Source: a virus. From it: a stretch of 26,392 nt of DNA. The stretch's first letter is position 1. The number at the start of each line of letters is the position of its first letter. Shown piece after piece: positions 9,333 to 23,839 of this stretch. Under the pieces are notes generated by a model. It ran no database searches and was not told the origin of the DNA. It saw only the letters and a list, made by a program, of their open reading frames with translations. The DNA is taken from positions 1-26,392 of IMG/VR virus record IMGVR_UViG_3300045988_023824. One strand, written 5' to 3'. A program made the position numbers and the translations under genes.

Positions 9333-9349
9333 TGAGTAAAAACTTGACA
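9333..9349 (+). promoter_or_regulatory. Copy of the conserved intergenic motif core (TGAGTAAAAACTTGACA)
   Basis: Identical to the 18742-18759 and 26171-26188 core apart from one fewer A. Lies 80 nt upstream of the head-module start (ATG 9429). Confidence 0.45.
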
Positions 9350-9428: not shown

Positions 9429-10022
9429 ATGGAAAAAATGTATAATGATCTTCCATTATATCAAGCAATTATTGCTGATGATTGTGATGGAATAGAGTTC
9501 GTAGCATTGACCAGTAAACCTGCAACCCAAGTTAATTGGCTTGCTTTTGGGGAATCTCAGAAGTTCTCGATGGATGAAGAAAAACATATAGTTACTTCTT
9601 GTTTAATGGTATGTGATATACCTATATTTAGACGGGATAGTAAAAACGGAGAATATTATATTCAATATGATAAAGAAACTCTCCGTTTAATGGCTGAAAA
9701 AATGATGTATGATAAGAGAACTACTGATGTAAATATTGAACATTTGGAAGATTCAGTAATTCCTGGAATAATTCTTCAAGAACTATATATTAAAGATATA
9801 GATAGAGGAATTAATCCAGTTGAATTTGCTGATTGTCCAGATGGTTCATTATTTGCTACTTATAAAGTAAATAATCCTGTTATATGGGATGCAATTAAAG
9901 CTGGCAAGTTTAAAGGGTTCTCTATTGAGGGATTGTTTACTTTAGAAAGACAATCTGATGAATATGAGGAACTTAAAGAGATTCAAAAAATGTTGAGAAA
10001 AATAAAAAGAATTAAACATTAA
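9429..10022 (+). CDS. Putative prohead protease, XkdF-like, 197 aa
   Basis: Intact standard-code ORF with no TGA. Sits directly upstream of the scaffold-like and capsid-like genes. VALTSKPATQ ... VNIEH pattern is reminiscent of XkdF-type phage proteases. Recognised by eye only. Confidence 0.45.
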   Translation: MEKMYNDLPLYQAIIADDCDGIEFVALTSKPATQVNWLAFGESQKFSMDEEKHIVTSCLMVCDIPIFRRDSKNGEYYIQYDKETLRLMAEKMMYDKRTTDVNIEHLEDSVIPGIILQELYIKDIDRGINPVEFADCPDGSLFATYKVNNPVIWDAIKAGKFKGFSIEGLFTLERQSDEYEELKEIQKMLRKIKRIKH

Positions 10023-10028
10023 TTAATT

Positions 10029-10640
10029 ATGAGTAAATTCACAAAAATTAAACTTGAGTTAGCTAAGATGCTTGCAAAGTTCAGTGATGTTAAAACTGAC
10101 AAGGCTGTGCTTACTTGGGATTCAGATGAGGATCTGAGAGAAGGTATGGATGTTTATGTAGCTGATGAAAATGGCGAATATGCACCTGCTGCTGATGGTG
10201 AGTATGTTACCGAAGATGGCAAAACGATTGTTGTTAAAGACGGTAAAGTAGAGTCCATTACTGATCCTAAAGCTGAAGTAGATCCAGAAGAAGCAGCTAA
10301 AGCAGAAGTTGATGCTGCTTGTGGGAAACGCAAGGTAGAAACTGCTGAAGAGCCAGTTGATCCTGAAGTAGCTACTGATGGTGACAAAGAAACTGTAACT
10401 GATGCAATTGATGCAATTCATCGCGAAATTAATGAGCTTTATGACATTGTTGATAAGCTTGTTAAGAAAGTAGCTGAATTAGAGGGTAAATCTGAAGCTA
10501 CAGAAAAGACGGTTGAAAAGATGAGCAAAATGAGTGCTGCATTTTCAGCTGAGGAACAGATAGAAGGCAAAGCTTCAATAATGACTGGTAATCCTGTCAT
10601 TGATAAAAAGCTTAAAAATATCCAAGGAATGTTTGAGTAA
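10029..10640 (+). CDS. Putative scaffolding protein, 203 aa, acidic coiled coil
   Basis: Intact ORF, highly acidic (D/E-rich), with predicted helical ends. Lies between the protease-like and capsid-like genes. Confidence 0.5.
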   Translation: MSKFTKIKLELAKMLAKFSDVKTDKAVLTWDSDEDLREGMDVYVADENGEYAPAADGEYVTEDGKTIVVKDGKVESITDPKAEVDPEEAAKAEVDAACGKRKVETAEEPVDPEVATDGDKETVTDAIDAIHREINELYDIVDKLVKKVAELEGKSEATEKTVEKMSKMSAAFSAEEQIEGKASIMTGNPVIDKKLKNIQGMFE

Positions 10641-11278
10641 TGTACCATTATATTTATGAAATTCAGCCTTTAATGCCTGGATGGGAAAACACTTACTATA
10701 TAGGCAAGCATAGTACTGATGAAGATCCATTTAATAATAGCTATGCAGGAAGTGGCACTATTCTTACTAATTACTATAGTAAATATGGCAAGATTAAAGA
10801 TGTTACTTACAGAAAAGTTATAATTGAATTTAATGATTCTTCAAAAGATAATGCTTTAAGAGAAGCTGATATTATAGGCGATTGTTATAACACCGATAAG
10901 AGATGTTTAAATCTTAAACCAGGAGGTTATGGAGGAATGACTCCAGAAATAGCTATTAAAATATCAGAATCTTGCAAAGGTCGTAATCCCTGAAATAAAC
11001 ACAAAACGGGAGTATATAATGCTGAAACTACAGAAAGACTTAAAAATATAGCTATAAATAGAGAGTTTACTTCAGAGACAAGAAAAAAGATGTCTGAATC
11101 TCATATAAATAAAGGTATAAAATCAATCATTATGCTAGATTTAGAAGGAAATATAATTAAAACTTATCCTTCAATTAAAAATGCTGTTTTAGATGGATAC
11201 TGTAAAAGCTCTATTCTTAGAGTATTAAACGGAAAATATAAACAGCATAAAGGTAAAATATTTAAGTATAACAATTAA
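10640..11278 (+). CDS. GIY-YIG homing endonuclease, 212 aa (1 in-frame TGA)
   Basis: Track ORFs 10640-10993 and 11090-11278 are co-phased, the gap has no TAA/TAG, and TGA is at 10991. HYIYEI...YYIGK (GIY...YIG), CLNLKPGGYGG, NUMOD3-like SETRKKMSESH, and a C-terminal DNA-binding tail ending KGKIFKYNN. Start overlaps the scaffold stop (TAATG). Confidence 0.8.
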
Positions 11279-11292
11279 AAAAATTTTTAAGT

Positions 11293-12195
11293 ATGGCAAA
11301 CCCCGTAATGACGAGTTTAACTAGTTACGTAGAACAGCGCAGGCTTCCATTGATAAAAGAGGCTGTATTAAAGGCTAAGAGTGCTTCGTTGTTCAATCTT
11401 CAAACTGACATCAAAACTAGTGCTGCTCTTAACCTGTTATCAACTGCTATTCAGTTTGGCGATGGCCTAGCTTGTGGTTGGGATGAAGCTGGAACTCAGA
11501 CTCTTTCTCAGAGAATTCTGACTACTGGTAATATTAAGATCAATATGGCATATTGTGATAAAGAGATGCTTAAATACTGGACTCAGTATCAAGTACGAGT
11601 AGCTGCTGGTCAGAAGACGCTTCCTTTTGAAGAGGATTTCGTAAATGCAGTAGTTGAGAACGTTAAGGCTGCTATCGAGACTGCTATTTGGCAGGGTGAT
11701 ACTACTTCTCAGACTAATAACCTGAAGTACTTTGATGGTCTGTTAAAGATCTTAAAAAATGCTGCTGGTACTGTTGATGTAACGATTACTGGTACTTCTG
11801 CTTATGATGACATTATGGCTGTTTATAACGCTATTCCTGAGAAGGTTCTGGATGGTGCTTCTATCTTAGTTGGTAGTGATACTTTCCGTAAATTTATCCA
11901 GGAGTTAGTTGCTAAGAACTACTACCATTATAGTGGTGAGAATCTTAATGGTGAGATTATGCTTCCTGGTTCGCAGGTTAAAGTAATCGCTGTTAATGGT
12001 CTTAATGGAACTGATAAGATTGTTGCTGGTCAGTTAGATAAGAACTTCTTCTATGGTTGCGATATGATGAACGATGAGGAGAAGTTTGAATTGTGGTATT
12101 CACAAGATTTCCGCGAATTTAGATTAGCTATTGAATTTAACGCTGGCGTACAGGTTGCATTCCCTGATGAGGTAGTTCTTGGTGCCAAAGCCTAA
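11293..12195 (+). CDS. Putative major capsid protein, 300 aa
   Basis: Intact ORF in the protease-scaffold-capsid position. Codon usage is visibly different and more G+C-rich (ggt/gct/cgt/cag), as expected for an abundant protein. Four TGG, no TGA. Confidence 0.6.
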   Translation: MANPVMTSLTSYVEQRRLPLIKEAVLKAKSASLFNLQTDIKTSAALNLLSTAIQFGDGLACGWDEAGTQTLSQRILTTGNIKINMAYCDKEMLKYWTQYQVRVAAGQKTLPFEEDFVNAVVENVKAAIETAIWQGDTTSQTNNLKYFDGLLKILKNAAGTVDVTITGTSAYDDIMAVYNAIPEKVLDGASILVGSDTFRKFIQELVAKNYYHYSGENLNGEIMLPGSQVKVIAVNGLNGTDKIVAGQLDKNFFYGCDMMNDEEKFELWYSQDFREFRLAIEFNAGVQVAFPDEVVLGAKA

Positions 12196-12233
12196 TTTCA
12201 ATAGAGTTTAACTTTAAATAAGATTGAAATTAT

Positions 12234-12758
12234 ATGGCTTGTTTAATAACTATCGCTGGTATTACCCTGGATTGCGAATCTTCGCTTGGTGGTATCAAAC
12301 AGGTATGGATTACTCAGTACGATAATGTTAAGAGTGTAACTGTAGATGATGAGACTAATCAAATCTCAGCTATTACTCTTGAAGAAGATGCTAAATGGTA
12401 TAATTACCAATTCCGCAAAGGTACTGGTTCTCTAACCTCAACATTGAACGTTGACGAAACTGCAGGAACCAACTATGTAAGTAATGAGCTTGCTCTTGTA
12501 TTTACAAAGATGGAGACTAAGAAAAGAATCGAGATTGCTGCTCTTTCTATTGGACAACTTGTAGTTGTTGTAGAAGATTCTAATGGCAAATACTGGTTCT
12601 TAGGAAAAGATGACTATGTAAGCGCTTCCGCTGGTACGGGTGTTACTGGTACTGCAAAAGGTGATCAGAACGCTTATACGCTGACTTTAGCTACTGACTC
12701 TGAATCATATCCTTATGAGTTGAGTGCAGAAGCTATCCAAAGCGTTGTAGGTGCTTAA
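12234..12758 (+). CDS. Abundant virion protein of unknown role, 174 aa (candidate tube/major tail or capsid-associated protein)
   Basis: Intact ORF with the same high-expression-like codon usage as the capsid gene, followed by a strong terminator. Three TGG, no TGA. Confidence 0.4.
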   Translation: MACLITIAGITLDCESSLGGIKQVWITQYDNVKSVTVDDETNQISAITLEEDAKWYNYQFRKGTGSLTSTLNVDETAGTNYVSNELALVFTKMETKKRIEIAALSIGQLVVVVEDSNGKYWFLGKDDYVSASAGTGVTGTAKGDQNAYTLTLATDSESYPYELSAEAIQSVVGA

Positions 12759-12770
12759 TAACAGAAAGAG

Positions 12771-12801
12771 GGGCGAGTATTAATTTACTTGCCCTTATTT
12801 T
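12771..12801 (+). terminator. Intrinsic terminator after the capsid block
   Basis: GGGCGAGTA (12771-12779) pairs with TACTTGCCC (12786-12794) with one G-U; loop TTAATT; followed by TTATTTTG. Confidence 0.65.
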
Positions 12802-12847
12802 GTTATATACCACATAATGAATAATTTATATTTTATAGAAAAATAAT

Positions 12848-15370
12848 ATGGCAAACGAAACTGAAAAGACAATTCTTCCTTATCTTAATGTCCTTGAAGT
12901 TGAAACAATAGATAAGTCAAATGTGACTAAAGTTATTGTTATTGACAAGGATGATGAAGTTAAGGTTATGGATGGTTCTCAGTTAGCTACTAATAGCTAT
13001 TTTGATCTTCAGGATAAACCTGAAATCAATGGCATTGAGTTAAATGGTAATATGACTTCAGAAGAGTTGGGATTAGCGTCATCTGAAGATATTGTTACTA
13101 TTAATTCTGAGTTAGAGCAAATAAAGAGTACTATTCCAAGTGCTGAAAATATTGATAATCAGATAACTGAACGATTAGCTGATTATCCAACTAAAGAAGA
13201 GGTTACAACTGAAATTTCAGATGCAGTTGCCAATAAAGCCGATAAATCTGAGATACCAACAAAAACTTCACAATTAACTAATGATAGTGGATTTATTAGC
13301 AGCTTAGATGGATATGCTACTGAAAAATGAGTTGAAGATAATTATCTTACAAAAGAAGCTGCTGAAAGTGCATTAAATTCTAAACAGAATAAATTAAACC
13401 AAGGTGACGGTATAGTAATTGAAGAGAATACTATTTCTGCAGATTATAATACTATTCGTAACAAACCATCTTTAAATGGAACTGAATTATCTGGAGCAGC
13501 TTCAATAGTACCTGCCATTAATATTCAATCAGTCCCATCTAAAGTTACTTTAGCTCCTGTATTTGGTAATCAAACTGGAGAAGCAGTTGAACTTCCAATA
13601 TATAATACAGAGACTAATCAAGCTGGTATTGTTAATGGTCCTCTATATGCACAATTAGCAGATAAATATACTAAAGCTGAAATTGATGCTTTAAATACAG
13701 CTATTAATAAAGAGATAGCTTCAAAACAGGGAACGCTTACAGCAGGAAAGAATATATCTATTATAGATAATGTAATCTCTGCTTTTGAGAATCATTTCTT
13801 ACTTAATTTAGATGAGAATGATCCTGTAAGACAGAAACATATCTATGACTTTATTAGAACTAATCTGGACTTCTATTTATTCTGCCAGATTACATATAAA
13901 GGTGATATTATAGTTATTCCTGTTGCAACTATTGAGCATCCTGAAACTATTGATTTATATGGCTATTATTTCCAAGATAATGGTGTATTAGTAGTTATTA
14001 ATGCAATCTTAGTAAATAATGGTAATATGACTGTTAAAGTTACTGAGGTTGATCTTACTAATAAAGGATATACTAAAGAAGAAGTAGATGCCAAACTTGA
14101 GGAAAAACAAGGAGTATTTACTCCACAAGCTCCATTAGCTTTTAATGAAGATAAATCCCAATTATCTGTAGATTTATCTGGATACCAACCAGTTGGTGAT
14201 TATGCTTTAAAGAGTGATATTCCAACTAAAGTTAGTGAGCTTACTAATGATTCTAACTTTGTAACTGAAGCAGAGGTTTCTGGAGATTTAGCAGGTAAAG
14301 CAGATAAGACTTATGTTGATGAGCAGCTTGCTACTAAACAGCCTGTAGGAGATTATGCAACAAAAACAGAACTTGCTGGTAAAGCTGATTCTTCTGTGGT
14401 AGAATCTTTATCTACTCAAGTAGCAACTAATACTTCAGATATATCAATTATTAAAACAAAACAAGAAGAAGATGGAGATAAGATTGATTCTCTTGATAAA
14501 GAGATGGCTACTAAGCAAGATTTACTTGTAAGTGGAACTAATATCAAAACAATCAATAGTCAGTCTTTACTTGGAGAAGGTAATATAGAAATTGAAAGTG
14601 GCTCTAATATTCCATTTCTATTTATAAATTCCACTACTCATCTTTCTGGAGATTTCGCTGCTGTTAAGAATGCTATAGCTAATAAAACACCATTTGAGCT
14701 TTATTATGTAAATATTCTAGGTTATGGTGATATAGCAGCTCCAGAAGTATGTTTTGTTTCAGGAGAAAATATTCAAGCTACTTTCCATTTTGAAAGTACT
14801 ACAGCTAATCATACTGTAGTTCAAACTACTATTACTCCAACTGGAGTATCAGCAGATACTAGTTATCATAGTTATCAAGAGCAATTAGTTAGTGGTACGA
14901 ATATAAAAACCATAAATGGACAGGATATTCTTGGTTCTGGTAACTTAGATGTTTCAGGAGGTGGAGGTACTACTGATTATAATCAATTGACCAATAAACC
15001 TCAAATCAATTCTGTTGAACTTAGTGGTAATAAGAGTCTTGAGGATTTAGGTATACCAACTAAGACATCTGAGCTTACTAATGATAGTGGCTTTTTAACT
15101 TCTATTCCTGATGAGTATGTTACAGAAACTGAATTAAATGCAGGATTAGGAAATAAACAAGACACTTTAGTTAGCGGAACAAATATTAAGACAGTTAATG
15201 GAGAAAGCTTGTTAGGTAGTGGAAATATAGATATTGAGAGTGTTTCTAATCCAGTTACTTATGGAAGTGGAACTCAACCACAAGTTCATACTATTCTTGT
15301 GGTAACTCAGTCTGAATATGATGCTATTTCAAGTAAAGATCCAAATACTCAATATTTAATTGTAGAGTAA
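12848..15370 (+). CDS. 840-aa tail fibre protein with repeated fibre motifs (1 in-frame TGA)
   Basis: Track ORFs 12848-13330 and 14027-15370 are co-phased, and 13331-14026 has no TAA/TAG (checked by codon). TGA 13328 is the only Trp codon in the gene. Three copies each of IPTK(T/V)S(Q/E)LTNDS(G/N)F, LVSGTNIKT(I/V)N..S(L/I)LG.GN(I/L) and NKP.(I/L)N..EL.G. Confidence 0.75.
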
Positions 15371-15371
15371 T

Positions 15372-16298
15372 ATGAATATTCGAGATAATTTAAAAGCTTT
15401 TTATGTAGGTAACAGACAAGGTACTGCCATTTATGTGGGCAGTACCAAAGTCTGGCCTATTGATCCTTGTAATCCTATAACCTTTATAGACCCAGTATTT
15501 GGAAGTCAAGTTAAAATACATTTATTAGATGATAAACCTGTAACGGATTGTAATATAGACAGTGTAAAAAGCTGATATTATCCAAGTCCTTCAAATGACT
15601 CTGCATTTACTGGTTCTGCTGTAGTTACTAACGAGGATTATAAAAAATTCAATGTTCCTGCATCTAATGATGATAATGTGGTATTTATGAGACTTTTTCA
15701 AAGTTGCGCCGATTTAACTACATTTGATACTGGAATGGTTGAAGGTGGAGAAGATAAATTAGGACTGTTATACAATATGGGCGGTTTTTATTGTACATTA
15801 CAAGGATGCACTTCATTAACTACTATTATAGGAGATTTTGATGGTTCTAAGATATATAATTATAACTGGATGTTTGGAAATTGTAGATCTTTAATTACGG
15901 CTCCAAATATAACATTTCCTCATAGGGATTATTTAGTAACTCATACAGTTAATGTAAGCAGATTATTTGATGGTTGTACTTCATTAACCACCATACCTTT
16001 ATATGATGCATATTCTTGGGAATATTTAAGTCTTACGTTTAATGGTTTATCTAATTTAGAGAATGTTGGAGGGTTTAAAGATATAGGAAAATGCTTTACT
16101 ACTAACTCCGTTGCTGGATTAAATTTTGAAGATAGCCCAAAGTTAACTAATCAATCAGTACAGAATATAATTAATAATTTAGCTACTCCAAGAGTATCAC
16201 TTGCTGGAGTTCTAAAACTTGCAGAGAATGTTTACAATTCATTAACAGAGGAACAAAAATCACAAATCACCAGTAAAGGCTGGTCAGTAACATACTAA
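15372..16298 (+). CDS. 308-aa BspA/DUF285-type leucine-rich-repeat protein, probable receptor-binding protein (1 in-frame TGA)
   Basis: Track ORFs 15372-15575 and 15678-16298 are co-phased, with TGA at 15573. Repeats FQSCADLTTF, LQGCTSLTTI, FGNCRSLITA and FDGCTSLTTI. The C-terminus LTEEQKSQITSKGWSVTY is paralogous to the end of 17719-18708. Confidence 0.6.
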
Positions 16299-16299
16299 T

Positions 16300-16521
16300 A
16301 TGAAAGTTGAAATTAAAGAAAAGTATCAAGTAGTTAAGCCTGAAGATAGTATGCTTCTGACTAACTATAAAGACGAAATGGATATTAAAGGGTATAACTC
16401 ATTTAAAGAGTGTATTTGTCCATTAGATTGCGATTTAACTCATCTAAGAGAAATATCTCTGGAACAAGACAGGGTTTATAAAGAACAAGCTGAGAAGGCT
16501 ATTGAAGAATCTCTTAAATAA
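16300..16521 (+). CDS. Small acidic protein, 73 aa (possibly a fibre assembly factor)
   Basis: Intact ORF packed tightly between two fibre-cluster genes. No recognisable motif. Confidence 0.35.
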   Translation: MKVEIKEKYQVVKPEDSMLLTNYKDEMDIKGYNSFKECICPLDCDLTHLREISLEQDRVYKEQAEKAIEESLK

Positions 16522-16528
16522 TAAAACT

Positions 16529-17203
16529 ATGATTATATTAAAGAATACTAAGAATACTCAGACCTTCTATGTTAGTAAGAAATGCGGTATTGAGACAGCT
16601 CAGCTTCCTGTTGGTTCTTATACAAAGATTGAAGCAGATGCGAGATTTCAACCTAAAGGTAATTACATTTCCGAAGATAAGGCTGTTGAAATAATTGATG
16701 AGCAAATTAATTCTCAGTTGGATGTTATACTTGAACCTAAGTTAGAGCCAATTAAGAATGATATTACTGAATTAGAAACATCTAAGATGGAAGTATTTCA
16801 AGTAAACTCTCCTATGTCATTTAATAGAGAGGGTGAAGATTTACATCTATCTATTGATCTTTCTAACTATGCTCTCAAGTCAGATATTCCAAGTACTGAG
16901 GATTTTGCTACTAAAGAAGAGCTTGCATCTGTTGAAAATGAAGTTGGAAATAATTCTTCTAAGATTACAGCTATTGAAAGCAAGCAAGAAGAGGATGAAC
17001 TAAAGATTGATGCATTAGATAAGGAAGTTGGGACATTAGATGCAAATAAAGCAGACAAATCGGAACTATCTAATTATGTAACATTAGAAGTATATAATGC
17101 TAAGGTTTCAGAATTAGAAGCTGCTATTCAAGCTTTACAGGCACAAATCGGAACTATCTCAACTACTCTTGATACAATTAATGGTGAAATTCCAAATGAA
17201 TAG
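16529..17203 (+). CDS. 224-aa coiled-coil tail-fibre protein
   Basis: Track ORF 16502-17203. I prefer ATG 16529 because it does not overlap the upstream stop at 16519-16521. [19 protein letters not shown] is paralogous to IKTKQEEDGDKIDSLDKEM in 12848-15370. Ends in TAG. Confidence 0.6.
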
Positions 17204-17717
17204 AGTATTAACAAATTATCCTAACTATAGTGTATCTTCTACAGGAGATGTATATAGTAACCCATTGACTTTTAAAGATTCTATTGGAAGAACCAGAAAA
17301 CAAATACATAAAAAGCTAAAACAGCATATAGATAAATATGGCTATAATTATGTAATTCTAGTATCTGGCTTAGATAAACCTAAAGCTATTAAAGTTCACA
17401 GACTAGTAGCAGAAGCATTTATTCCAAATCCTGACAATCTACCATATGTTAACCATATAAATGAAAATAAGACAGATAATAGGGTAGAAAATTTAGAATG
17501 ATGTGATGCAAAGTATAATAATACATATGGAACTAGAATAAATAGATGTATTGATAAAATTAGTAAACCTGTAGGGCTATTTATTAATGATTTACTAGTT
17601 AAAACATATAAAAATGCAATTGAAACATCAATAGATGGGTATACTCATAGTAGAGTTATAGATTGTCTTAAAGGAAGAACAGACACTTATAAAGGGGTAA
17701 AATTTAAATATATCTAA
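17196..17717 (+). CDS. HNH homing endonuclease (NUMOD4-like N-terminus plus HNH_3-type core), 173 aa (1 in-frame TGA)
   Basis: ATG 17196 overlaps the fibre stop (ATGAATAG). [14 protein letters not shown], then [35 protein letters not shown] followed by TGA 17499 at the conserved W of NLEW. Continues 72 codons to TAA 17715-17717, ending KGVKFKYI. Confidence 0.85.
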
Positions 17718-17718
17718 T

Positions 17719-18708
17719 ATGGCAAATACAATTTCTGATAAATTAACGTATCTTGAAGGTACTAAGAGTGCCATTAAAGATGCTATTGTAGCTAAAGGTG
17801 TTGCTGTATCAGATTCCGATACCTTTAGAAGCTATGCAGATAAGATAGGACAGATTTCTGGAGGTGAGGTGTTTGATGTTACTAAAACAGGATTAACGTT
17901 TGCTTATTGTAATATGCATCATAGTCAATTTGGGAAACTAAATTGAACTATAAATCCAAGTACTGCAGATATTTCATATTTATTTAGCAATAGTAACTTA
18001 CCTGATAGCTATATTGATTTAGGTAGTAAATTAGATACTTCTGTTTCTTATTTAGCAAAAGAGAGTTTTAAACAAGCTAATATTCACCAAATAGCAATAA
18101 ATTCAGGTCAACAGTTTAATAACCCTTCAAGTATGTTTGAAAGCACTATATCTCCAAATTCAACTCTGCAAGATATAGTTTTTAATATAACAGAATCATA
18201 TATTCCTTTTGTTTTATATTTTACAAACATAAGTACTACTGGTACAATTACAGTAAATATTAAAAATGGAATTAATGCATCACTAGTTTACTTTATGTAT
18301 GGATATAATGGCAACGAAATATGTGATAAAATAGTATTCAATGGATATAATTCTAGTACATTATCATTAGAGCAATTCTTTTGGACTGGTAGTACAAATC
18401 TAACTAAAATTCCAGAAATAGATTTGACAGCTGTTGATAACTATACATTTAGCGAATTAATAACAGGTGGAGAAATGACTTCTATAACTACATTTGGAGG
18501 GATTACAAATTTAAAGGTAGATCTTAATTTGCAGTGATTACCAAATCTTAATGCTGAGTCAGTCGATAATATCTTAAATAAAGCAAATGATTTAACAGGA
18601 AATCCTACTCAAACTATTACATTTAATTCTGCTGTTTATAATACCCTTACTGAGGAACAGAAATCATTAGCTACATCTAAAAACTGAACTTTAGCAAGTT
18701 CAAACTAA
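17719..18708 (+). CDS. 329-aa fibre/receptor-binding protein, second DUF285/BspA-like paralogue (3 in-frame TGA)
   Basis: Track ORFs 17719-17946 and 18133-18537 are co-phased and the gaps were checked. TGA at 17944,18535,18685; TAA 18706-18708. The N-terminus MANTISDKLTYLEGTKSAIKDAIVAKGV is fibre-like. C-terminus VYNTLTEEQKSLATSKNWTLASSN. Confidence 0.55.
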
Positions 18709-18723
18709 TTGTCAGTTTTTATT

Positions 18724-18759
18724 TTTTCTTAGTACTTTGAGTGAGTAAAAAACTTGACA
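18724..18759 (+). promoter_or_regulatory. Conserved 36-nt intergenic element, copy 1 (TTTTCTTAGTACTTTGAGTGAGTAAAAAACTTGACA)
   Basis: 32 of 36 identical to 26153-26188, with a 20-nt perfect core (18740-18759 = 26169-26188). Intergenic and plus-oriented. Confidence 0.55.
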
Positions 18760-18785
18760 TTAAAGGAGGCTTAGGTCTCCTTTAA
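18760..18785. terminator. Terminator-like hairpin directly after the conserved element
   Basis: TTAAAGGAGGC / GTCTCCTTTAA (one G-U), loop TTAG, followed by TTATTTTAAT. Confidence 0.6.
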
Positions 18786-18861
18786 TTATTTTAATACATT
18801 AGTAAATTGGTTTATATTTTAAGAAAAAGATATGTAAAACTAATGTAAATTGCTGTAAAAT

Positions 18862-19254
18862 ATGAATTATACTTTATTAATGCAAAATACAACTACTAAA
18901 GAAGTTTATATATTTAATCTTGAAAATCAGAATTATGCTGAAAATATCTACTATAAGTTTGATATTACATTATCTGATGATATGCCTGATGGTGAATATC
19001 AGTATATTCTGTTTAGTAATCCAAATAAACTTGAAGTAATTGTAGATGTAAATAATCCTATGCAGTCAGAGCTATATGGTAATCCAGTTATTCTGGTAAC
19101 TTATGAAAATACTCTTACTACAGGAACACAGATATTAGTTGCTGGTAAACCTATACCTGTATTGAGTTCAGGACTAATAAGAGTTGGAGATTATCAGAAT
19201 AATAAATACCAATACGATAAACAAAACAAATATACGGCTTATGAGCGAAAATAA
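18862..19254 (+). CDS. Hypothetical protein, 130 aa
   Basis: Intact standard-code ORF and the first gene after the 18724-18785 element. No motif recognised. Confidence 0.45.
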   Translation: MNYTLLMQNTTTKEVYIFNLENQNYAENIYYKFDITLSDDMPDGEYQYILFSNPNKLEVIVDVNNPMQSELYGNPVILVTYENTLTTGTQILVAGKPIPVLSSGLIRVGDYQNNKYQYDKQNKYTAYERK

Positions 19255-20323
19255 AACAAAAGTACAATTAAGTGCAATTGATCCTGTTGTAGTGTCAAAT
19301 TTAGTACTTCCTGTAGAATCGAGAAAAAGGGGTTCTGATTGGATTTCTTGGGGTGAAGATAATCGCTATCCTGTATATTTATGGGATCTATATTTAAATG
19401 TAGCTACTCTTCAATCTATCATTAATGGGACTGCTGACTTTATTGTTGGTAATGATGTTATATGTAATGCACCAGGATTTGAAGTAACTGTAAATAAGAA
19501 AGGTGAGACTATTATGGATATTATGCGTAAAGTATCTAAAGATAAGATGATTTTTGGAGGATATGCTTTACAAATAATTAGAGATATGTTAGGTAGAGTT
19601 TCAGAGATCTATCATCTTGACTTTATGAAGATTCGTTCTGATGAAAAGAATGAAGTATTCTATTATGCCGATGATTGGTCTGCTTGGTCTATTAAAGCTA
19701 TCAAATATCCAAAATTTAATTATTCAGATGATAATCCTACAAGTGTTGTTTATAATAAGGGCTATATAACAAGAAAAGTATATCCAGTCCCTGTTTATGG
19801 TGCAGCTATCCTATCTTGCGAAACTGAGAAGAATATTAATGAGTTCCATCTAAATTCTCTTCATAACGGATTTATGGGTAATATTATCATTAACTTTAAT
19901 AATGGACAGCCTACAGACGAAGTTAAAGAAGAGATTGAGATGAATATTAATGAGAAATTCTCAGGATTTCAAAATGCTGGTAGAGTTCTTATTTCATATA
20001 ATGATGATGAAACAAATAAGACTACTATTGAGCGTTTAGATTCTGATGATTTTGATGAGAAATATAGTGCTTTATCTGATAGAACAAGAGAACAGATATT
20101 CTGTGCATTTAGAGCTAATCCTAACTTATTTGGAATAAACTCTGATTCTACTGGATTTAATGAGCAAGAGTTTAATTCATCATTTAAACTATATAATAGA
20201 ACGATGATTAAACCTATGCAAAAAGAGATTTGTGATACATTTGACAAAATCTTTGGTATGAAGAATTCTATCACAATTACCCCATTTAGCTTAGATACAG
20301 CTGATTCTAAAATAGTTGAATAA
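19241..20323 (+). CDS. Putative portal protein, 360 aa
   Basis: Track ORF 19184-20323. I prefer ATG 19241 (MSENKTKV), which overlaps the upstream gene by 14 nt. GSDWISWGEDNRYPVYLWDLY...LQSIINGTADFIVG resembles N-terminal portal motifs of Bacteroidota phages. Five TGG, no TGA. Confidence 0.55.
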   Translation: MSENKTKVQLSAIDPVVVSNLVLPVESRKRGSDWISWGEDNRYPVYLWDLYLNVATLQSIINGTADFIVGNDVICNAPGFEVTVNKKGETIMDIMRKVSKDKMIFGGYALQIIRDMLGRVSEIYHLDFMKIRSDEKNEVFYYADDWSAWSIKAIKYPKFNYSDDNPTSVVYNKGYITRKVYPVPVYGAAILSCETEKNINEFHLNSLHNGFMGNIIINFNNGQPTDEVKEEIEMNINEKFSGFQNAGRVLISYNDDETNKTTIERLDSDDFDEKYSALSDRTREQIFCAFRANPNLFGINSDSTGFNEQEFNSSFKLYNRTMIKPMQKEICDTFDKIFGMKNSITITPFSLDTADSKIVE

Positions 20324-20324
20324 T

Positions 20325-21008
20325 ATGGAACAAATGGATTTTAGAAATGTACTTCTAATTAGTGAAGATTATATCAAATCTGAATCTAACTTAGACAATA
20401 ATGTTTCTGGTAAATATCTTCAGTCAGCAATTAAACTTGCACAAGATATTGAGCTTCAGTCATTAATTGGAACTAAGCTCTTAGAAAAGATTCAGAAATT
20501 AGTAATTGATTGGAAAGATCCAAATAAACCAGTTCATCCAATAGAACCTCCTATTTATGATCCTACTTCAATAGATGACCCAGAAAATCATAGATATAAA
20601 GAATTGCTAGATTACTATATTCAGCCTTATTTACTTTATCAAGTATTAAGTGAGATTACTATACCCATCTCATTTAAGCTGAGTAATTTTGGGGTTATGA
20701 GGACTGATGATGAGAAAGATTTAACTTCTGATATTAGCCAAGTTAATCTTATTAAGAAATATTATAGAGATAAAGCAGATTTCTTTAAAACGAGATTACA
20801 AAATTGGGTAATTACATATTATAATGATTTTCCTGAATTGTATTCTTATAAACCTCTTAAAGATATGTATCCAAATATGTATTCAAGTTCATCTTGTACT
20901 ATTTGGTTAGGTGGAGCTAGAGGTAAAGGTTGGAGATATAATTCTTGTGAAGGTCCTCTTCAAAGAGCTTATGATTTTCCTTCAAGTAACAATAAAAAGA
21001 GTAAGTAA
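20325..21008 (+). CDS. Putative head-tail connector/adaptor protein, 227 aa
   Basis: The track start at 20316 is TTG, so I prefer ATG 20325 just after the portal stop. The position after the portal and LISEDYIKSES...YLQSAIKLAQDIELQSLIGTKL resemble gp6-like connector N-termini. Weak call. Confidence 0.4.
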   Translation: MEQMDFRNVLLISEDYIKSESNLDNNVSGKYLQSAIKLAQDIELQSLIGTKLLEKIQKLVIDWKDPNKPVHPIEPPIYDPTSIDDPENHRYKELLDYYIQPYLLYQVLSEITIPISFKLSNFGVMRTDDEKDLTSDISQVNLIKKYYRDKADFFKTRLQNWVITYYNDFPELYSYKPLKDMYPNMYSSSSCTIWLGGARGKGWRYNSCEGPLQRAYDFPSSNNKKSK

Positions 21009-21010
21009 TT

Positions 21011-21436
21011 ATGACCTACTATGAGATAATTAGCAATTTAAAAGCTTGTGCATTAGAAGAGCCAAACATCAATTTTGTAGGAAGTAAAGACATTTATGAG
21101 TTAAATAGCTTACCAACTATTGAGTATAATGTGTTCTATATAACACCTAATACTTTTAGTGTAGATGAAGATACTATTACTTACTCTTTAAACCTATACT
21201 TCGTATCAAGATGGGATGAGACTGATAACAACCAATTGGAGGAACAGTCAGCAGGTATGCTTGCACTGCAAAATATAATTAATCGTTTTAATAACCTATA
21301 TCCAGAAGTTGAAATAGCTTATCCTTTAATTTATACTCCATTCTATCAAAAGTTCAAAGATATTACCTGTGGAGTGTTTGTTAGAGCTGATTTCCAAGTT
21401 GACAACACATTAGGCTTATGTCAAGACAGTATGTAG
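21011..21436 (+). CDS. Hypothetical neck/head-completion protein, 141 aa
   Basis: Intact ORF ending in TAG. The functional guess rests on position only. Confidence 0.3.
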   Translation: MTYYEIISNLKACALEEPNINFVGSKDIYELNSLPTIEYNVFYITPNTFSVDEDTITYSLNLYFVSRWDETDNNQLEEQSAGMLALQNIINRFNNLYPEVEIAYPLIYTPFYQKFKDITCGVFVRADFQVDNTLGLCQDSM

Positions 21437-22002
21437 TTTATATTCATACTTTTCCAAATGGTAAAAGATATGTTGGATTAACCACTCAGTCAGTAAATAG
21501 TAGATGAAGAGGTGGAGAAGGATATAAAGATCAATTTGTTTACAGACCAATTAAAAAGTACGGTTGAAACAATATTAAACATACTATTTATTATGTAAAT
21601 AGTGAATCGGAAATGAAATATCTTGAAAAATACTTCTTTAGCTATTATAATACTACAGATTTAAGATTTGGTTATAATAGAACTGACACAAGTAATCATC
21701 CTATAGTTTCTAATGAAACTAAAGTTATTATTTCTGAATTTGCTAAAACTAGAATAGGAAATAAAAATCCATTTTATGGGAAGCATCATTCAGAAGAAAC
21801 TAAGGAATTAATACGCAAGAAAAATCAAAACTATGGAACTAAAGCTATTAGTCAATACACTTTAGATGGAAGATTTATAAAATCTTATAAAAGTATAAGA
21901 TCAGCAGCAAGAGAGTTAAACATAACTTCTTCTTTAATATCTTCAGTTTTAAGTGGCAGACAAAAACAAACTAAAGGATATACCTTTAAGTATAATATGT
22001 AA
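21418..22002 (+). CDS. GIY-YIG homing endonuclease, 194 aa (2 in-frame TGA)
   Basis: ATG 21418 overlaps the upstream gene by 19 nt. MSRQYVVYIHTFPNGKRYVGLTTQSVNSRWRGGEGY...KKYGWNNIKH, with TGA at 21505 and 21565. Co-phased with track ORF 21613-22002, which carries NUMOD3-like GKHHSEETKELIRKKN and the tail TKGYTFKYNM. Confidence 0.85.
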
Positions 22003-22658
22003 TGGAAAATAAATTAAATTGGTTTGGTAAAGTATTAGAATGGGTTGATAAATATGGATTACTAAAGATATTTAAAGCAGGGATTGGATTAATATTTATA
22101 TCCTATGTAATGGTTATTACACTTAATCCCTCTATTGTTTATAATAAGGTTGTAACCTATATTGAACAAACTCACAATTCTAAAACTATTGCAAGAAATG
22201 AAGCAACTTTAAAGATTAAATATAAGCTTAAAGAATTGCTTCAAAGCACAAATGCTGATAGAGCTTGGGTTATTGAATATCATAATGGAACTACTGGATT
22301 AGGAGGACTTCCATTTACCTATGGAGTAATGAATGCAGAGGAAGTAAAACCAGGAATAAGACCTGTAAGTAGCCATTATAAAGACTTCCTCTTATCTGAC
22401 TATACTTCAATTATAGAGTTTTCTAAGAATGATGGATGGTTTGGTAATATAGATAGTTTAGAAGCAGATGATCCAAGATTATATTATGCATTTAAATCCA
22501 ACAGAGTGAATGAAATAGCAGTATTTTATTTAAAGACTGAGGATAAAGATATTGGCATTTTAGGTTTGTCATTCTGTGATACACCTATGCCTTATGATAC
22601 TTGAGTACATCTAAGAAGAGCTGGAATACAGATAAGTATAATTTTAAATAAAATATAA
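22002..22658 (+). CDS. 218-aa N-terminally membrane-anchored protein of unknown function, first gene of the lysis cassette (1 in-frame TGA)
   Basis: Start overlaps the previous stop (TAATG). TM segment GLLKIFKAGIGLIFISYVMVITL. TGA 22602 extends the protein by 18 codons to TAA 22656-22658, one nt before the holin-like ATG. Confidence 0.45.
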
Positions 22659-22659: not shown

Positions 22660-22818
22660 ATGAAATATTGGTTAAAATATGTAATAGTAGTTGTACTATT
22701 AATGATTGCATTTTTGTTAATTAAAGTAATTCCTTTTTGGATTACTATTAGTTTAACGTTATTTGGAGCAGTGTGCTATTTTATTTACCTTTATAAACTG
22801 CATAATTCATATAAATAA
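22660..22818 (+). CDS. Holin-like small membrane protein, 52 aa, two predicted TM helices
   Basis: MKYWLKYVIVVVLLMIAFLLIKVIPFWITISLTLFGAVCYFIYLYKLHNSYK. Below the track's size cut-off. Its stop overlaps the endolysin start (TAATG). Confidence 0.6.
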   Translation: MKYWLKYVIVVVLLMIAFLLIKVIPFWITISLTLFGAVCYFIYLYKLHNSYK

Positions 22819-23270
22819 TGAAGTATTTCACACTCGAAGAATTAACAAGATCTGATACTGCTTCAATTAAGCATATAGATAACACTCCAGATGAGAGTAT
22901 AACAGAGCACCTGATAGAGTTGGTCGAGAAGCTTTTAGACCCAATAAGAGAGAGATGGGCAAAGTATTGTGATGACAATCAGCTTGGCAATGCAGGCATC
23001 AGGATTTCCTCTGGTTTTAGAAATAAGGAGCTTAATAAAGCAGTAGGAGGATCTTCAACTTCTGCTCATTTAACAGGGTATGCAGCAGATATATCTCCAA
23101 TTAATGGTAATATGAAAGTATTCCAAAGTTGGATTGCTGAAGCTATTGAAGAATTAAATTGAGACCAGTTGATATATGAAAAGCCTAAGAATGGTATAGC
23201 AAGTTGAATACACTTGGGATTAAAGAATAAAGACGGGATGCAAAGACGACAGAAATTTACTATTATATAA
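22818..23270 (+). CDS. Endolysin, zinc peptidase M15 (VanY / L-Ala-D-Glu peptidase type), 150 aa (2 in-frame TGA)
   Basis: FTLEELTRSDTA...IDNTP, then SSGFRNKELNKAVGGSSTSAHLTGYAADI (H-x6-D). TGA 23160 and 23205 are followed by WIHLG (third His). TAA 23268-23270. Confidence 0.85.
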
Positions 23271-23839
23271 TGTTTTACTATTGTTATAAAATAATTTTAA
23301 CTGCAGGTACATTAAGAGGCAAGTATTATATTGGGAAAAGGATTTATAGAGGTAAAGACATAAATAAAGATCCATATAAAGGATCAGGAAGGATTATTAC
23401 TAATTATTACAAAAGATTCCCTAATGCATACCAAAAGATTATTTTGGCAACTTGCACTAATGCAGATGAATTATCTAAATTAGAATACAAACTAATTGGA
23501 GATAAATGGGACACTGATCCTATGTGTTTAAATTTGAAACCTGGAGGAGAAGGAGGCAATTACGGAGTCAAATTTAATTCTGAATGAAAGAAGAAACTGT
23601 CTAATTCTAATAAGGGAAAGAAACATAATTGCCCAGAATCTTGAAGAGATAAAGTAGATGCTCATAACAAACAAAGATGTCGTAAAGTAGCTCAGTATGA
23701 TTTAGATGGTAATTTTATTCAAGAGTATGAAAGTTGCACAGAAGCAGCCAAATCTGTAGGAACTGATAGAGGAGCTATTAGTAGAGTATGTGGTGGATTA
23801 GCAAATACAGCTAAAGGATTCAAGTGAAGATATGTTTAA
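23270..23839 (+). CDS. GIY-YIG homing endonuclease, 189 aa (3 in-frame TGA), paralogue of 10640-11278
   Basis: YCYKI...YYIGK, YKGSGRIITNYY and CLNLKPGGEGG are shared with 10640-11278. TGA at 23585,23642,23825. C-terminal tail AKGFKWRYV. Start overlaps the endolysin stop (TAATG). Confidence 0.8.

What the first reader, a model, noticed from the sequence alone, without database searches (positions are those of the whole stretch)
9429..21436. Recoding is module-specific: head, portal, connector, holin and helicase genes contain no TGA
These are my counts from the translations. The 14 recoded genes (tail/baseplate, tape-measure-like, fibres, LRR proteins, membrane protein, endolysin and all four homing endonucleases) contain 39 TGA and about 41 TGG, so roughly half of their Trp codons are TGA.

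The following genes contain about 28 TGG and zero TGA: protease, scaffold, capsid and 12234-12758 (block 9429-12758); portal and the two genes after it (19241-21436); the holin; the helicase; and a small minus-strand ORF. If TGA usage were uniform at about one half, 0 of 28 would have a probability of order 1e-8.

The split therefore runs inside the late region (head versus tail/lysis), not simply early versus late as usually described. Two non-exclusive readings:
- A translational checkpoint: capsid assembly can proceed in the host code, while tails and the lysis enzyme need the suppressor.
- Selection against a slow or leaky codon in the most abundant proteins.
Basis: partly seen in the sequence, partly recalled or inferred. 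Interest (0 to 1): 0.8.

Follow-up and report, generated by a model that had tools for sequence, protein, structure and literature searches.

The report
Abundant virion proteins avoid recoded TGA
In this ~30-kb gut phage that reads the stop codon TGA as tryptophan, TGA use is graded gene by gene (almost none in the capsid and tail-tube genes, most in homing endonucleases), which looks like ordinary selection against a costly codon in abundant proteins rather than a head-versus-tail switch.

Summary
TGA aligns with Trp in standard-code relatives (code 4).

The 1e-8 probability is post hoc. An unbiased permutation gives p = 0.005.

In about 40 recoded IMG/VR relatives, 13 of them full-length contigs:
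- The conserved TGA-poor genes are the major capsid protein (1/150), gene 12234-12758 (1/90), the scaffold, the helicase and the small holin-like gene.
- Gene 12234-12758 has a tail-tube fold, so it is not a head gene.
- Protease, portal and connector genes carry at least one TGA in all 15 relatives tabulated by class.
- The large terminase carries TGA in all 13 with it, as do genes just downstream of host-type early promoters.

So the pattern is a gene-by-gene gradient that follows expected protein abundance. A strict "heads in host code" checkpoint is not supported. The slow or leaky codon reading is supported.

No suppressor tRNA is found in any complete genome. Promoter motifs and the absence of Shine-Dalgarno sequences suggest a Bacteroidota host. 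How TGA is decoded remains unknown.

Gene-level bias in recoded phages is already published, so this is a new member of a known kind.

The parts
1..9 (+). T9 slippery run where the 213-aa chaperone-like ORF (frame 1, ends at 183) meets ORF 3-323; cut by the window edge
   Evidence: The T-run is strictly conserved in all relatives, including those of 54-56% GC with fully diverged flanks. Both frames are conserved.
3..323 (+). Probable frameshift extension of the tail-assembly-chaperone-like protein; 4 TGA / 1 TGG
   Evidence: TGA fraction in relatives is 0.71.
448..936 (+). Neck / tail-completion protein; 2 TGA / 1 TGG
   Evidence: phrog_5; counts.
939..3119 (+). 726-aa tail/baseplate protein; 7 TGA / 9 TGG
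   Evidence: TGA fraction in relatives is 0.37.
3122..6562 (+). 1146-aa tail/baseplate protein; 8 TGA / 11 TGG
   Evidence: TGA fraction in relatives is 0.46.
6562..9234 (+). Tape measure protein; 3 TGA / 6 TGG
   Evidence: phrog_9483 and phrog_3336.
9334..9349 (+). Conserved intergenic motif GAGTAAAAACTTGACA about 80 nt upstream of the protease-scaffold-capsid-tube unit
   Evidence: It sits at the same place in all relatives examined.
9429..10022 (+). Prohead protease (Peptidase_S78_2); 0 TGA / 2 TGG here, but one TGA in about 10 relatives
10029..10640 (+). Scaffold-like protein; 0 TGA / 1 TGG
   Evidence: 0/29 summed over relatives.
10640..11278 (+). GIY-YIG homing endonuclease between scaffold and capsid; 1 TGA / 1 TGG
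   Evidence: phrog_314. Present in only some relatives.
11293..12195 (+). Major capsid protein; 0 TGA / 4 TGG; distinct codon usage (GC3 0.34)
   Evidence: (1 TGA in 150 Trp codons over 38 unique sequences).
12234..12758 (+). Probable major tail tube protein; 0 TGA / 3 TGG
   Evidence: AlphaFold2 pLDDT 70. Foldseek top solved structures are lambda, SPP1, Sf11 and Milano tail tubes. BFVD matches include 'major tail protein'. 1 TGA in 90 Trp codons in relatives.
12848..15370 (+). 840-aa fibre protein; 1 TGA / 0 TGG
15372..16298 (+).
17184..17717 (+). HNH homing endonuclease; 1 TGA / 0 TGG
   Evidence: phrog_59.
17719..18708 (+).
18743..18759 (+). Second copy of the motif GAGTAAAAAACTTGACA, upstream of the unit that starts with 18862-19254 and the portal gene
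19241..20323 (+). Portal protein; 0 TGA / 5 TGG here; TGA fraction 0.12 in relatives, with 9 inferred TGG/TGA flips
   Evidence: phrog_11226.
20325..21008 (+). DUF6712 protein (likely connector); 0 TGA / 4 TGG here; TGA fraction 0.27 in relatives
21011..21436 (+). 141-aa protein; 0 TGA / 1 TGG
21418..22002 (+). GIY-YIG homing endonuclease; 2 TGA / 0 TGG
22002..22658 (+). Membrane protein upstream of the lysis genes; 1 TGA / 4 TGG here, up to 6/0 in relatives
22660..22818 (+). 52-aa holin-like membrane protein; 0 TGA / 2 TGG
   Evidence: 0/10 in relatives. The function is inferred from position and hydrophobicity only.
22818..23270 (+). Endolysin (Peptidase_M15_3); 2 TGA / 2 TGG
23270..23839 (+). 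GIY-YIG homing endonuclease; 3 TGA / 1 TGG
24157..24318 (-).
   Evidence: Its single Trp codon is TGG in two relatives.
24390..26108 (-). SF2 helicase-like protein (motifs read by eye; no Pfam or PHROG hit); 0 TGA / 5 TGG
   Evidence: 0/51 at conserved Trp columns in relatives; one TGA in one relative.
26172..26188 (+). Third copy of the motif GAGTAAAAAACTTGACA, facing the rightward early unit beyond the window end
26252..26373 (-). Two tandem matches to the Bacteroidota promoter consensus TTTG-N17-22-TAnnTTTG (26252-26283 and 26342-26373), facing the helicase operon
   Evidence: In every full-length relative and most partial ones, matches cluster in the divergent early intergenic region.

Best explanation
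The window is most of the genome of a ~30-kb siphovirus from the human gut that reads TGA as Trp throughout its genome.

TGA is usable but costlier than TGG. AT-biased mutation keeps turning TGG into TGA. Purifying selection removes TGA with a strength that scales with how much of each protein is needed. The outcome is a gradient, not a module boundary:
- Essentially no TGA in the major capsid protein and the tail tube (hundreds of copies per virion) or in the scaffold.
- 7-27% TGA in protease, portal and connector genes (roughly a dozen copies).
- 35-50% in the large tail and baseplate proteins, the tape measure and the terminase.
- Near the neutral A/G equilibrium (65-100%) in homing endonucleases, the frameshift extension of the chaperone-like protein and a lysis-region membrane protein.

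A second, separate constraint keeps the helicase and the first small genes after the host-type early promoters TGA-free, probably because they are translated first.

Shown here: the counts, TGA = Trp, the conserved gradient, the lack of a tRNA, and the tail-tube fold. Inferred: protein abundance from standard virion stoichiometry, the cost of TGA, the timing of gene expression, and the host.
For: 1. Conserved and specific to Trp codons.
- At conserved Trp columns the capsid gene has 1 TGA in 150 codons over 38 unique sequences, and the tube gene has 1 in 90.
- In the same genes, 74% and 58% of conserved Lys/Glu/Gln columns are A/G polymorphic.
- Against the A/G odds at Lys/Glu/Gln sites of the same gene, TGA is about 75-100 times under-represented in capsid and tube and about 10-40 times in portal and protease. 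It is 2.5-5 times under-represented in the big tail proteins and not at all in GIY-YIG 23270-23839 or ORF 3-323.

2. Parsimony on gene trees.
- The capsid gene has 0.25 Trp-codon changes per column against 1.28 at Lys/Glu/Gln.
- The portal gene has 2.25 against 1.53.
- So TGA keeps arising and stays rare where it is selected against.

3. General codon bias points the same way.
- The capsid gene has A-ending Lys/Glu/Gln/Leu/Arg codons at 0.41 against about 0.75 elsewhere, and GC3 of 0.34 against about 0.15.
- Stronger codon selection in phage structural genes is established (Lucks et al. 2008, PMC2266997).

4. The TGA-free gene 12234-12758 has a tail-tube fold. The TGA-free late set is therefore the most abundant virion proteins, not the head module.

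5. Whole genomes of relatives.
- Capsid + tube + scaffold: 0/7-8 in all 15.
- Protease, portal and connectors: at least 1 TGA in all 15.
- Terminase: 1-4 of 4 Trp codons are TGA.
- Homing endonucleases: about 50-80% TGA.

6. Enough time has passed. The sequences differ by up to 41% at the nucleotide level in the capsid gene. The closest standard-code relative has only 67% capsid identity. Retained ancestral TGG or recent import therefore cannot explain the pattern.
Against: - There are no expression or proteomic data. Abundance is inferred from virion stoichiometry.
- Across genes, TGA fraction and A-ending Lys/Glu/Gln fraction are only weakly correlated (Spearman 0.16). Helicase, protease and the holin-like gene avoid TGA without a general codon shift, so a second cause has to be invoked.
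- Trp codons are few: 4 in the capsid gene, 3 in the tube, 1 in the scaffold. Within any single genome the core set is only p = 0.007-0.048, and the relatives are not independent samples.
- One distant recoded relative (L036) does have a TGA in its capsid gene.
- The TGA-free late genes are also the first genes after a conserved upstream motif, so position in the transcription unit is confounded with abundance.
- In TAG-recoded crAss-like phages, capsid and portal are among the proteins detected only under the recoded (code 15) gene predictions (PMC9523058). Avoidance is therefore not universal.
Confidence: 0.6

Rival explanations
1. Translational checkpoint. Head genes are kept in the host code so that procapsids can be built before TGA decoding is available. 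Tails and lysis then wait for the suppressor.
For: In this window all Trp codons of protease, scaffold, capsid, portal and the two following genes are TGG. The capsid gene and scaffold stay TGA-free in the close relatives. Regulation of late and lysis genes by recoding is the prevailing published hypothesis (10.1101/2021.08.26.457843).
Against: - At least one of protease, portal and connector genes has TGA in all 15 relatives tabulated by class. The large terminase has TGA in all 13 that include it.
- The tail tube is as TGA-free as the capsid gene.
- TGA occurs in genes next to the host-type early promoters, including an HTH protein that may be a transcription regulator.
- No suppressor tRNA or other code-change gene is detectable.
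- The holin-like gene, which a lysis timer should recode, is TGA-free.
Confidence: 0.08
2. Position in the transcription unit. TGA is purged from promoter-proximal genes because slow decoding or premature termination there would uncouple transcription from translation and reduce expression of everything downstream.
For: Each TGA-free block starts right after a host-type promoter or the conserved motif GAGTAAAAA(A)CTTGACA. This holds for protease to tube, for 18862-19254/portal/two following genes, for the helicase, and for the first two early genes. TGA appears further down each unit.
Against: - The pattern is confounded with function and abundance.
- A GIY-YIG gene with TGA sits between scaffold and capsid in the same unit.
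- The portal gene, second in its unit, flips to TGA freely in relatives.
- TGA and TGG show no positional bias within genes (Mann-Whitney p = 0.50).
- In some relatives the same motif also precedes the neck gene, which carries TGA.
Confidence: 0.1
3. The host itself reads TGA as Trp. There is then no recoding switch, and the gene-to-gene differences simply follow the host's codon preference in highly expressed genes.
For: No tRNA is found in any complete genome. TGA is present in 52-71% of Trp-containing genes, including genes near the early promoters. [quoted passage not shown]
Against: - The known TGA=Trp bacteria, Mycoplasma and Spiroplasma, lack a cell wall (my own knowledge), whereas this phage has an M15 peptidoglycan peptidase and a holin-like gene.
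- Early promoters match the Bacteroidota consensus and genes lack Shine-Dalgarno sequences. Bacteroidota use the standard code.
- Sister phages use the standard code. The higher-GC ones use TGA stops.
- The share of genes with TGA lies in the 26-71% range reported for recoded phages of standard-code hosts, below the 90% reported for phages that share their host's alternative code.
Confidence: 0.12
4. History rather than selection. Head genes either keep ancestral TGG because they evolve slowly, or were recently imported from a standard-code relative.
For: The family includes standard-code and TGA-free relatives. The capsid block has a higher GC content than the rest of the window.
Against: - Synonymous A/G sites in the capsid gene are nearly saturated among relatives: 35 of 47 conserved Lys/Glu/Gln columns are polymorphic.
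- Nucleotide divergence of the capsid gene (up to 0.41) is like that of other genes.
- The nearest standard-code capsid is only 67% identical.
Confidence: 0.03

Closest known systems
TGA-recoded (code 4) gut phages with gene-level codon bias, e.g. the Agate clade (Borges et al., bioRxiv 10.1101/2021.08.26.457843)
   Same: - In-frame TGA read as Trp in a low-GC gut phage.
- Close standard-code relatives exist.
- The genes that use TGA most are a homing endonuclease, tail proteins and a transmembrane protein next to the lysis genes. That is the same trio reported for Agate.
- Low-GC sister phages have already lost TGA as a stop, as in the evolutionary path those authors propose.
   Different: - The genome is ~30 kb against ~127 kb for the Agate genomes analysed.
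- It has no suppressor tRNA, release factor or synthetase gene.
- TGA also occurs in genes beside the early promoters and in the terminase.
- The complementary result, near-total avoidance in the capsid and tail-tube genes, was not reported there.
Early/late dual coding in crAss-like and Lak phages (PMC7886860, PMC9523058)
   Same: The replication helicase and the first early genes are free of the recoded stop codon, while many late genes use it.
   Different: - There is no clean block structure.
- The most abundant late proteins avoid the recoded codon. In crAss-like phages, capsid and portal are among the proteins detected only under the recoded gene predictions.
- The codon here is TGA to Trp, not TAG to Gln.
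Translational selection on codon usage in phage structural genes (Lucks et al. 2008, PMC2266997)
   Same: The strongest codon bias lies in the genes for the most abundant virion proteins. The capsid gene shows a general shift in synonymous usage as well as TGA avoidance.
   Different: The codon selected against is a reassigned stop codon. The bias against it is much stronger than against ordinary non-preferred codons in the same gene.
Phages that simply share a code-4 host's genetic code (Mycoplasma and Spiroplasma phages; PMC11210395)
   Same: No phage suppressor tRNA, and TGA spread over most of the genome.
   Different: The phage has peptidoglycan-lysis genes, Bacteroidota-type promoters, no Shine-Dalgarno sequences and standard-code sister phages.

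Membership tests
Stop-codon-recoded phage, TGA to Trp (code 4) | In-frame TGA inside conserved genes, with code 4 restoring full-length genes and coding density | tested here: met
   Code-4 ORFs of 726, 1146, 890 and 840 aa replace fragmented code-11 ORFs. In close relatives, coding density rises from 0.71-0.83 to 0.96-0.97.
Stop-codon-recoded phage, TGA to Trp (code 4) | TGA positions align with Trp (not Gly) in homologues that use the standard code | tested here: met
   W in 55 of 116 non-gap cells, then Y 16 and G 7. The profile is the same as at TGG positions. Single Trp codons switch between TGA and TGG among relatives.
Stop-codon-recoded phage, TGA to Trp (code 4) | TGA not needed as a terminator | tested here: met
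   All 25 complete genes in the window end in TAA or TAG.
Stop-codon-recoded phage, TGA to Trp (code 4) | Phage-encoded suppressor tRNA(UCA) (frequent but not obligatory: reported in 15-35% of code-4 phages) | tested here: not met
   ARAGORN finds none in the window or in the 49 recoded and sister loci scanned; the only tRNA found is a tRNA-Leu at the edge of a distant standard-code relative, L051. Rfam at E <= 1 finds none in the window or in one complete genome. Relaxed ARAGORN gives only non-conserved hits, most of them inside coding sequence.
Stop-codon-recoded phage, TGA to Trp (code 4) | Host uses the standard code, so the phage code differs from the host code | tested here: inconclusive
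   Bacteroidota-type promoters cluster in the early intergenic region of the relatives, and genes lack Shine-Dalgarno sequences. The GTDB scan returned only whole-phage contigs binned into unrelated MAGs. No direct link to a host was obtained.
Early/late code-switch model of recoded phages | Genes expressed before the switch contain no recoded stop codon | tested here: not met
   The helicase and the first two small genes are TGA-free. The next genes of the same units carry TGA in nearly all relatives: 144-aa, 102-aa, an 85-aa HTH protein, a 110-aa membrane protein and the 53-aa ORF after the helicase. Expression timing is inferred from position only.
Early/late code-switch model of recoded phages | Late structural and lysis genes are uniformly the recoded set | tested here: not met
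   Capsid, tail tube, scaffold and the holin-like gene are TGA-free, while tail, fibre, endolysin and membrane-protein genes are recoded.
Translational selection on codon usage in highly expressed genes | Bias strongest in the most abundant products and graded with abundance | tested here: met
   TGA fraction at conserved Trp columns: capsid 0.01, tube 0.01, protease 0.07, portal 0.12, connectors 0.12-0.27, large tail proteins 0.37-0.46, homing endonucleases 0.75-1.0. Abundance itself is inferred, not measured.
Translational selection on codon usage in highly expressed genes | The same genes show a general shift in synonymous codon usage | tested here: inconclusive
   Clear for the capsid gene (A-ending 0.33-0.41 against about 0.7-0.8) and moderate for tube, portal and connectors (0.53-0.58). 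Absent for protease and helicase (0.74-0.75). Spearman correlation is 0.16.
Translational selection on codon usage in highly expressed genes | Measured expression or translation rates correlate with the bias | not testable with these tools
   No transcriptome, ribosome-profiling or proteome data exist for this uncultured phage.

The most novel reading that the evidence does not exclude
The phage recodes TGA without any tRNA of its own. It neutralises or outcompetes host release factor 2, so that the host's ordinary tRNA-Trp(CCA) reads UGA by near-cognate pairing. Such decoding would be slow and error-prone. That would explain why TGA is tolerated in low-copy proteins and purged from the capsid and tail-tube genes, and why all phage genes end in TAA or TAG. 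An early TGA-free product (the 59-aa or 79-aa protein, or the helicase-like protein) would then be the effector.
Probability: 0.12. Interest if true: 0.85.

Novelty: new member of a known kind. Interest (0 to 1): 0.35.

Why it matters
Recoded stop codons in phages are usually described as an early/late switch that times lysis. This clade offers a clean comparative case: about 40 related recoded genomes plus sister phages that use the standard code or lack TGA altogether.

Here the use of the recoded codon looks like a balance between mutation and selection, graded by how much of each protein is needed. That implies the reassigned codon still carries a measurable cost. Presence or absence of recoded codons in a gene should therefore not be read as evidence of regulation without a comparison across relatives.

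The clade is also a compact, very common gut phage that uses TGA in most of its genes with no suppressor tRNA, and it probably infects a standard-code Bacteroidota host. That makes it a practical system for the open question of how the majority of code-4 phages decode TGA.

Tried and rejected
- Cultured or deposited phages (INPHARED): no match by DNA or by capsid protein.
- Host from genomes: the GTDB scan with a capsid profile gave five contigs of 8-35 kb binned into Lachnospiraceae, Saccharimonas, Bacteroidaceae and unnamed MAGs. These look like mis-binned phage contigs and give no host call.
- A 148-kb IMG/VR contig was considered as a possible prophage. Its two ends repeat each other about 29.8 kb apart, as in a concatemer of the phage genome.
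- Hidden suppressor tRNA: relaxed ARAGORN thresholds gave a 98-nt hit inside the 726-aa gene whose 'anticodon' varies among relatives (tct, tcc, tca). Rejected as a false positive.
- Base after the codon: TGA is followed by A in 22 of 40 cases in the window against 12 of 41 for TGG (p = 0.025). The excess is small and inconsistent in 15 relatives, so it was not used as evidence.
- Position within genes: no difference between TGA and TGG (p = 0.50).
- TGA = Gly (code 25): rejected by alignment.
- Import of the head block from a standard-code phage, or slow evolution of the head genes: rejected.
- Looking for genes unique to the recoded clade: the early genes have no homologues in the parts of the standard-code relatives that were fetched, so nothing can be concluded.

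Full report
WHAT THE WINDOW IS

The window has about 30% GC, and nearly all genes lie on the + strand. Under the standard code the large genes break into fragments. With TGA read as sense they become continuous ORFs of 726, 1146, 890 and 840 aa.

PHROG and Pfam annotation gives this gene set:
- a neck protein, two large tail or baseplate proteins and a tape measure protein;
- an XkdF-type prohead protease, a scaffold-like protein and an HK97-type major capsid protein;
- fibre and LRR-type proteins, a portal and a DUF6712 protein;
- a membrane protein, a small holin-like protein and an M15 endolysin;
- three GIY-YIG and one HNH homing endonuclease;
- on the minus strand, an SF2 helicase-like gene followed by three small ORFs.

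IMG/VR holds 55 relatives found through the capsid protein and 22 more loci found through the helicase. From overlapping loci I rebuilt 15 genomes or near-genomes of 27-33.6 kb. Six have 55-85-bp terminal overlaps, which indicates circular assemblies. The window is therefore about 85% of a ~30-kb genome. The missing part holds about ten further genes, including both terminase subunits.

CHECKING THE OBSERVATION

- 39 TGA and 41 TGG in the 14 recoded genes.
- 27 TGG and no TGA in protease, scaffold, capsid, 12234-12758, portal, the two following genes, the holin-like gene and the helicase.
- One more TGG in a small minus-strand ORF.

TGA means Trp. Where standard-code relatives can be aligned, TGA positions carry W in 55 of 116 non-gap cells. 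That profile is the same as at TGG positions. Gly is rare, so code 25 is excluded.

The stated probability of about 1e-8 is not valid. The genes were selected for having no TGA, and the rate of one half came from the other genes only. An unbiased shuffle of the 39 TGA among all 107 Trp codons gives:
- p = 0.005 for this many Trp codons lying in TGA-free genes;
- p = 0.014 for chi-square heterogeneity;
- p = 4.8e-5 for an a-priori split of seven head genes against the rest.

Its single Trp codon is TGG in two relatives.

WHAT THE RELATIVES SHOW

About 40 relatives are recoded. More distant ones use the standard code. Among the standard-code relatives, the high-GC ones use TGA as a stop. The low-GC ones closest to the recoded clade (L038, L042) have no TGA stops at all. 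That matches the published route to recoding.

At Trp columns conserved across unique sequences, the TGA fraction is:

| Gene | TGA fraction |
|---|---|
| Capsid | 0.01 (1/150) |
| 12234-12758 | 0.01 (1/90) |
| Helicase | 0 (0/51) |
| Holin-like | 0 (0/10) |
| Protease | 0.07 |
| Portal | 0.12 |
| 21011-21436 | 0.12 |
| Neck | 0.22 |
| DUF6712 | 0.27 |
| 726-aa protein | 0.37 |
| 1146-aa protein | 0.46 |
| Endolysin | 0.50 |
| Membrane protein 22002-22658 | 0.65 |
| ORF 3-323 | 0.71 |
| Homing endonucleases | 0.75-1.0 |

In the same alignments, conserved Lys/Glu/Gln columns are mostly A/G polymorphic (74% in the capsid gene). Synonymous change is therefore near saturation, and the retention of TGG is specific to Trp codons.

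Parsimony on gene trees gives 0.25 Trp-codon changes per column in the capsid gene against 1.28 at Lys/Glu/Gln. In the portal gene the figures are 2.25 against 1.53. TGA keeps arising in the portal gene but stays rare.

By functional class in the 15 rebuilt genomes:
- Capsid + tube + scaffold: 0 of 7-8 in every one.
- Protease, portal and connectors: at least one TGA in every one. The window's 0/12 is the extreme of the distribution.
- Terminase: 1-4 TGA among 4 Trp codons.
- Tail genes: mostly about 35-55% TGA.
- Homing endonucleases: about 50-80% TGA.

IDENTITY OF GENE 12234-12758

An AlphaFold2 model (pLDDT 70, pTM 0.71) was compared with solved structures. Nearly all of the best matches are tail-tube or tail and neck proteins: lambda gpV, SPP1 gp17.1, Sf11, 7-7-1, Milano and the gene transfer agent. 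Probabilities are 0.9-1.0, but E-values are only about 2e-3 and TM-scores 0.3-0.45.

Among predicted viral structures it matches about 170-200-aa siphovirus proteins at TM 0.6-0.8. These include two named 'major tail protein' and proteins of phages of the Bacteroidota genera Nonlabens and Polaribacter.

With an 890-aa tape measure and no sheath gene, a tube protein is required, and this is the only candidate. The late genes that strictly avoid TGA are therefore the capsid and the tail tube, the two most abundant virion proteins, plus the scaffold. The boundary is not head versus tail.

EARLY REGION, HOST AND DECODING

In the relatives, nearly all matches to the Bacteroidota promoter consensus TTTG-N17-22-TAnnTTTG fall in the divergent intergenic region between the helicase operon and the rightward operon. 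There are two facing the helicase, one facing the other way, and often one before the 53-aa ORF. In the window they lie at 26252-26283 and 26342-26373. That this consensus is specific to Bacteroidota is my own knowledge of the Bacteroides and Flavobacterium promoter literature.

Genes lack Shine-Dalgarno sequences. A Bacteroidota host with the standard code is therefore likely, but it is not shown.

Immediately downstream of these promoters, the helicase and the first two small genes are TGA-free. The next genes carry TGA in almost all relatives. They are a 144-aa protein, a 102-aa protein, an 85-aa HTH protein with weak similarity to sigma region 4, a 110-aa membrane protein and the 53-aa ORF.

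No tRNA was found in the window, in any recoded relative or in any rebuilt genome:
- by ARAGORN at default settings;
- by Rfam at E <= 1, on the window and one complete genome;
- at relaxed thresholds, which gave only non-conserved false positives.

This agrees with published figures: only 15-35% of code-4 phages have a detectable suppressor tRNA. How TGA is decoded here is unknown.

INTERPRETATION

The best-supported explanation is a balance between AT-biased mutation (TGG to TGA) and purifying selection against TGA that scales with protein demand. A separate constraint applies to the very first genes expressed.

Points in favour:
- The gradient tracks expected copy number per virion.
- The capsid gene also has a general codon-usage shift.
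- The low-abundance frameshift extension and the homing endonucleases sit at the neutral A/G equilibrium.

A strict checkpoint that lets heads assemble in the host code is contradicted by several results:
- TGA in the terminase in all 13 relatives that include it, and in at least one protease, portal or connector gene in all 15;
- the TGA-free tail tube;
- TGA in genes beside the early promoters;
- the absence of any visible suppressor.

A positional alternative, avoidance in promoter-proximal genes, cannot be excluded. Each TGA-free block follows a host-type promoter or the conserved motif GAGTAAAAA(A)CTTGACA. Import of the head block and slow evolution are both rejected.

COMPARISON WITH WHAT IS KNOWN

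Borges et al. (10.1101/2021.08.26.457843) already reported three things:
- Recoded codons concentrate in structural and lysis genes.
- Only a few gene families are significantly biased towards them. In TGA-recoded Agate phages these are a homing endonuclease, a tail protein and a transmembrane protein in the lysis cassette.
- Most code-4 phages lack a detectable suppressor tRNA.

The present clade shows the same trio of TGA-rich genes.

What is added here:
- the complementary, conserved avoidance in the capsid and tail-tube genes;
- the graded pattern across genes;
- the presence of TGA in the terminase and near-early genes;
- a compact tRNA-less genome with Bacteroidota-type promoters.

In TAG-recoded crAss-like phages, capsid and portal are among the proteins detected only under the recoded gene predictions (PMC9523058). 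Avoidance in the capsid gene is therefore not universal. Stronger codon selection in phage structural genes is established (PMC2266997).

VERDICT

The module framing and the checkpoint are not supported. The costly-codon reading is supported. This is a new member of a known kind and of moderate interest.

Noticed in passing
window 1-323 (T-run at 1-9; frame 1 ORF ends at 183; frame 3 ORF 3-323): Two conserved overlapping reading frames meet at a T9 run. The run is strictly conserved in all relatives, even 54-56% GC ones whose flanks have fully diverged. It looks like a programmed ribosomal frameshift of the gpG/gpGT tail-assembly-chaperone type, joining a 213-aa protein (complete only in relatives) to the 107-codon ORF at the window start. 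The extension is very TGA-rich (4 of 5 Trp codons).
   Followed up: partly
window 9334-9349, 18743-18759, 26172-26188 (+ strand): A 16-17-nt motif GAGTAAAAA(A)CTTGACA recurs about 80-120 nt upstream of the protease unit, the portal unit and the rightward early unit, and upstream of the neck gene in some relatives. It always has the orientation of the downstream genes and is conserved in all relatives checked. It could be a phage-specific promoter, perhaps read by the 102-aa and 85-aa HTH/sigma-like proteins, or another regulatory site. Two copies are followed by a hairpin.
   Followed up: partly
window 26252-26283 and 26342-26373 (- strand); same region in complete relatives: Tandem matches to the Bacteroidota promoter consensus (TTTG, 17-22 nt, TAnnTTTG) face the helicase operon. 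In every full-length relative and most partial ones, matches cluster in the divergent early intergenic region. Together with the lack of Shine-Dalgarno sequences, this points to a Bacteroidota host.
   Followed up: partly
whole window and complete relatives (for example L030 + L059): No tRNA gene of any kind is present in a phage that uses TGA as Trp in more than half of its genes. No release factor or tRNA synthetase gene was seen either. The decoding agent is unidentified.
   Followed up: yes
window 10640-11278, 17184-17717, 21418-22002, 23270-23839: Four homing endonuclease genes (three GIY-YIG, one HNH) sit between structural and lysis genes. Their presence and position vary among otherwise collinear relatives, some of which have extra copies next to the portal, protease or capsid genes. 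All are TGA-rich, so they appear to be long-term residents of recoded phages.
   Followed up: partly
L038, L042, L078 (low-GC standard-code relatives): These relatives have no in-frame TGA (L038, L042). None of the three has a TGA stop in the 9-22 genes examined (all TAA or TAG). This TGA-free state could be the intermediate before recoding.
   Followed up: partly
L015 + L075 (IMG/VR contig 3300045988_175865, 148,631 bp): The two ends of the fetched 33.5-kb stretch of this 148-kb 'viral contig' repeat each other at 100% identity about 29.8 kb apart, as in a head-to-tail concatemer of the ~29.8-kb phage genome. It is not a prophage in host DNA and not a large phage.
   Followed up: yes
window 12759-12847, 18760-18800, 23840-23885: GC-rich hairpins followed by T-runs lie after the tail-tube gene, after the second LRR gene and after the last + strand gene. 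They look like intrinsic terminators that split the + strand into several transcription units.
   Followed up: no
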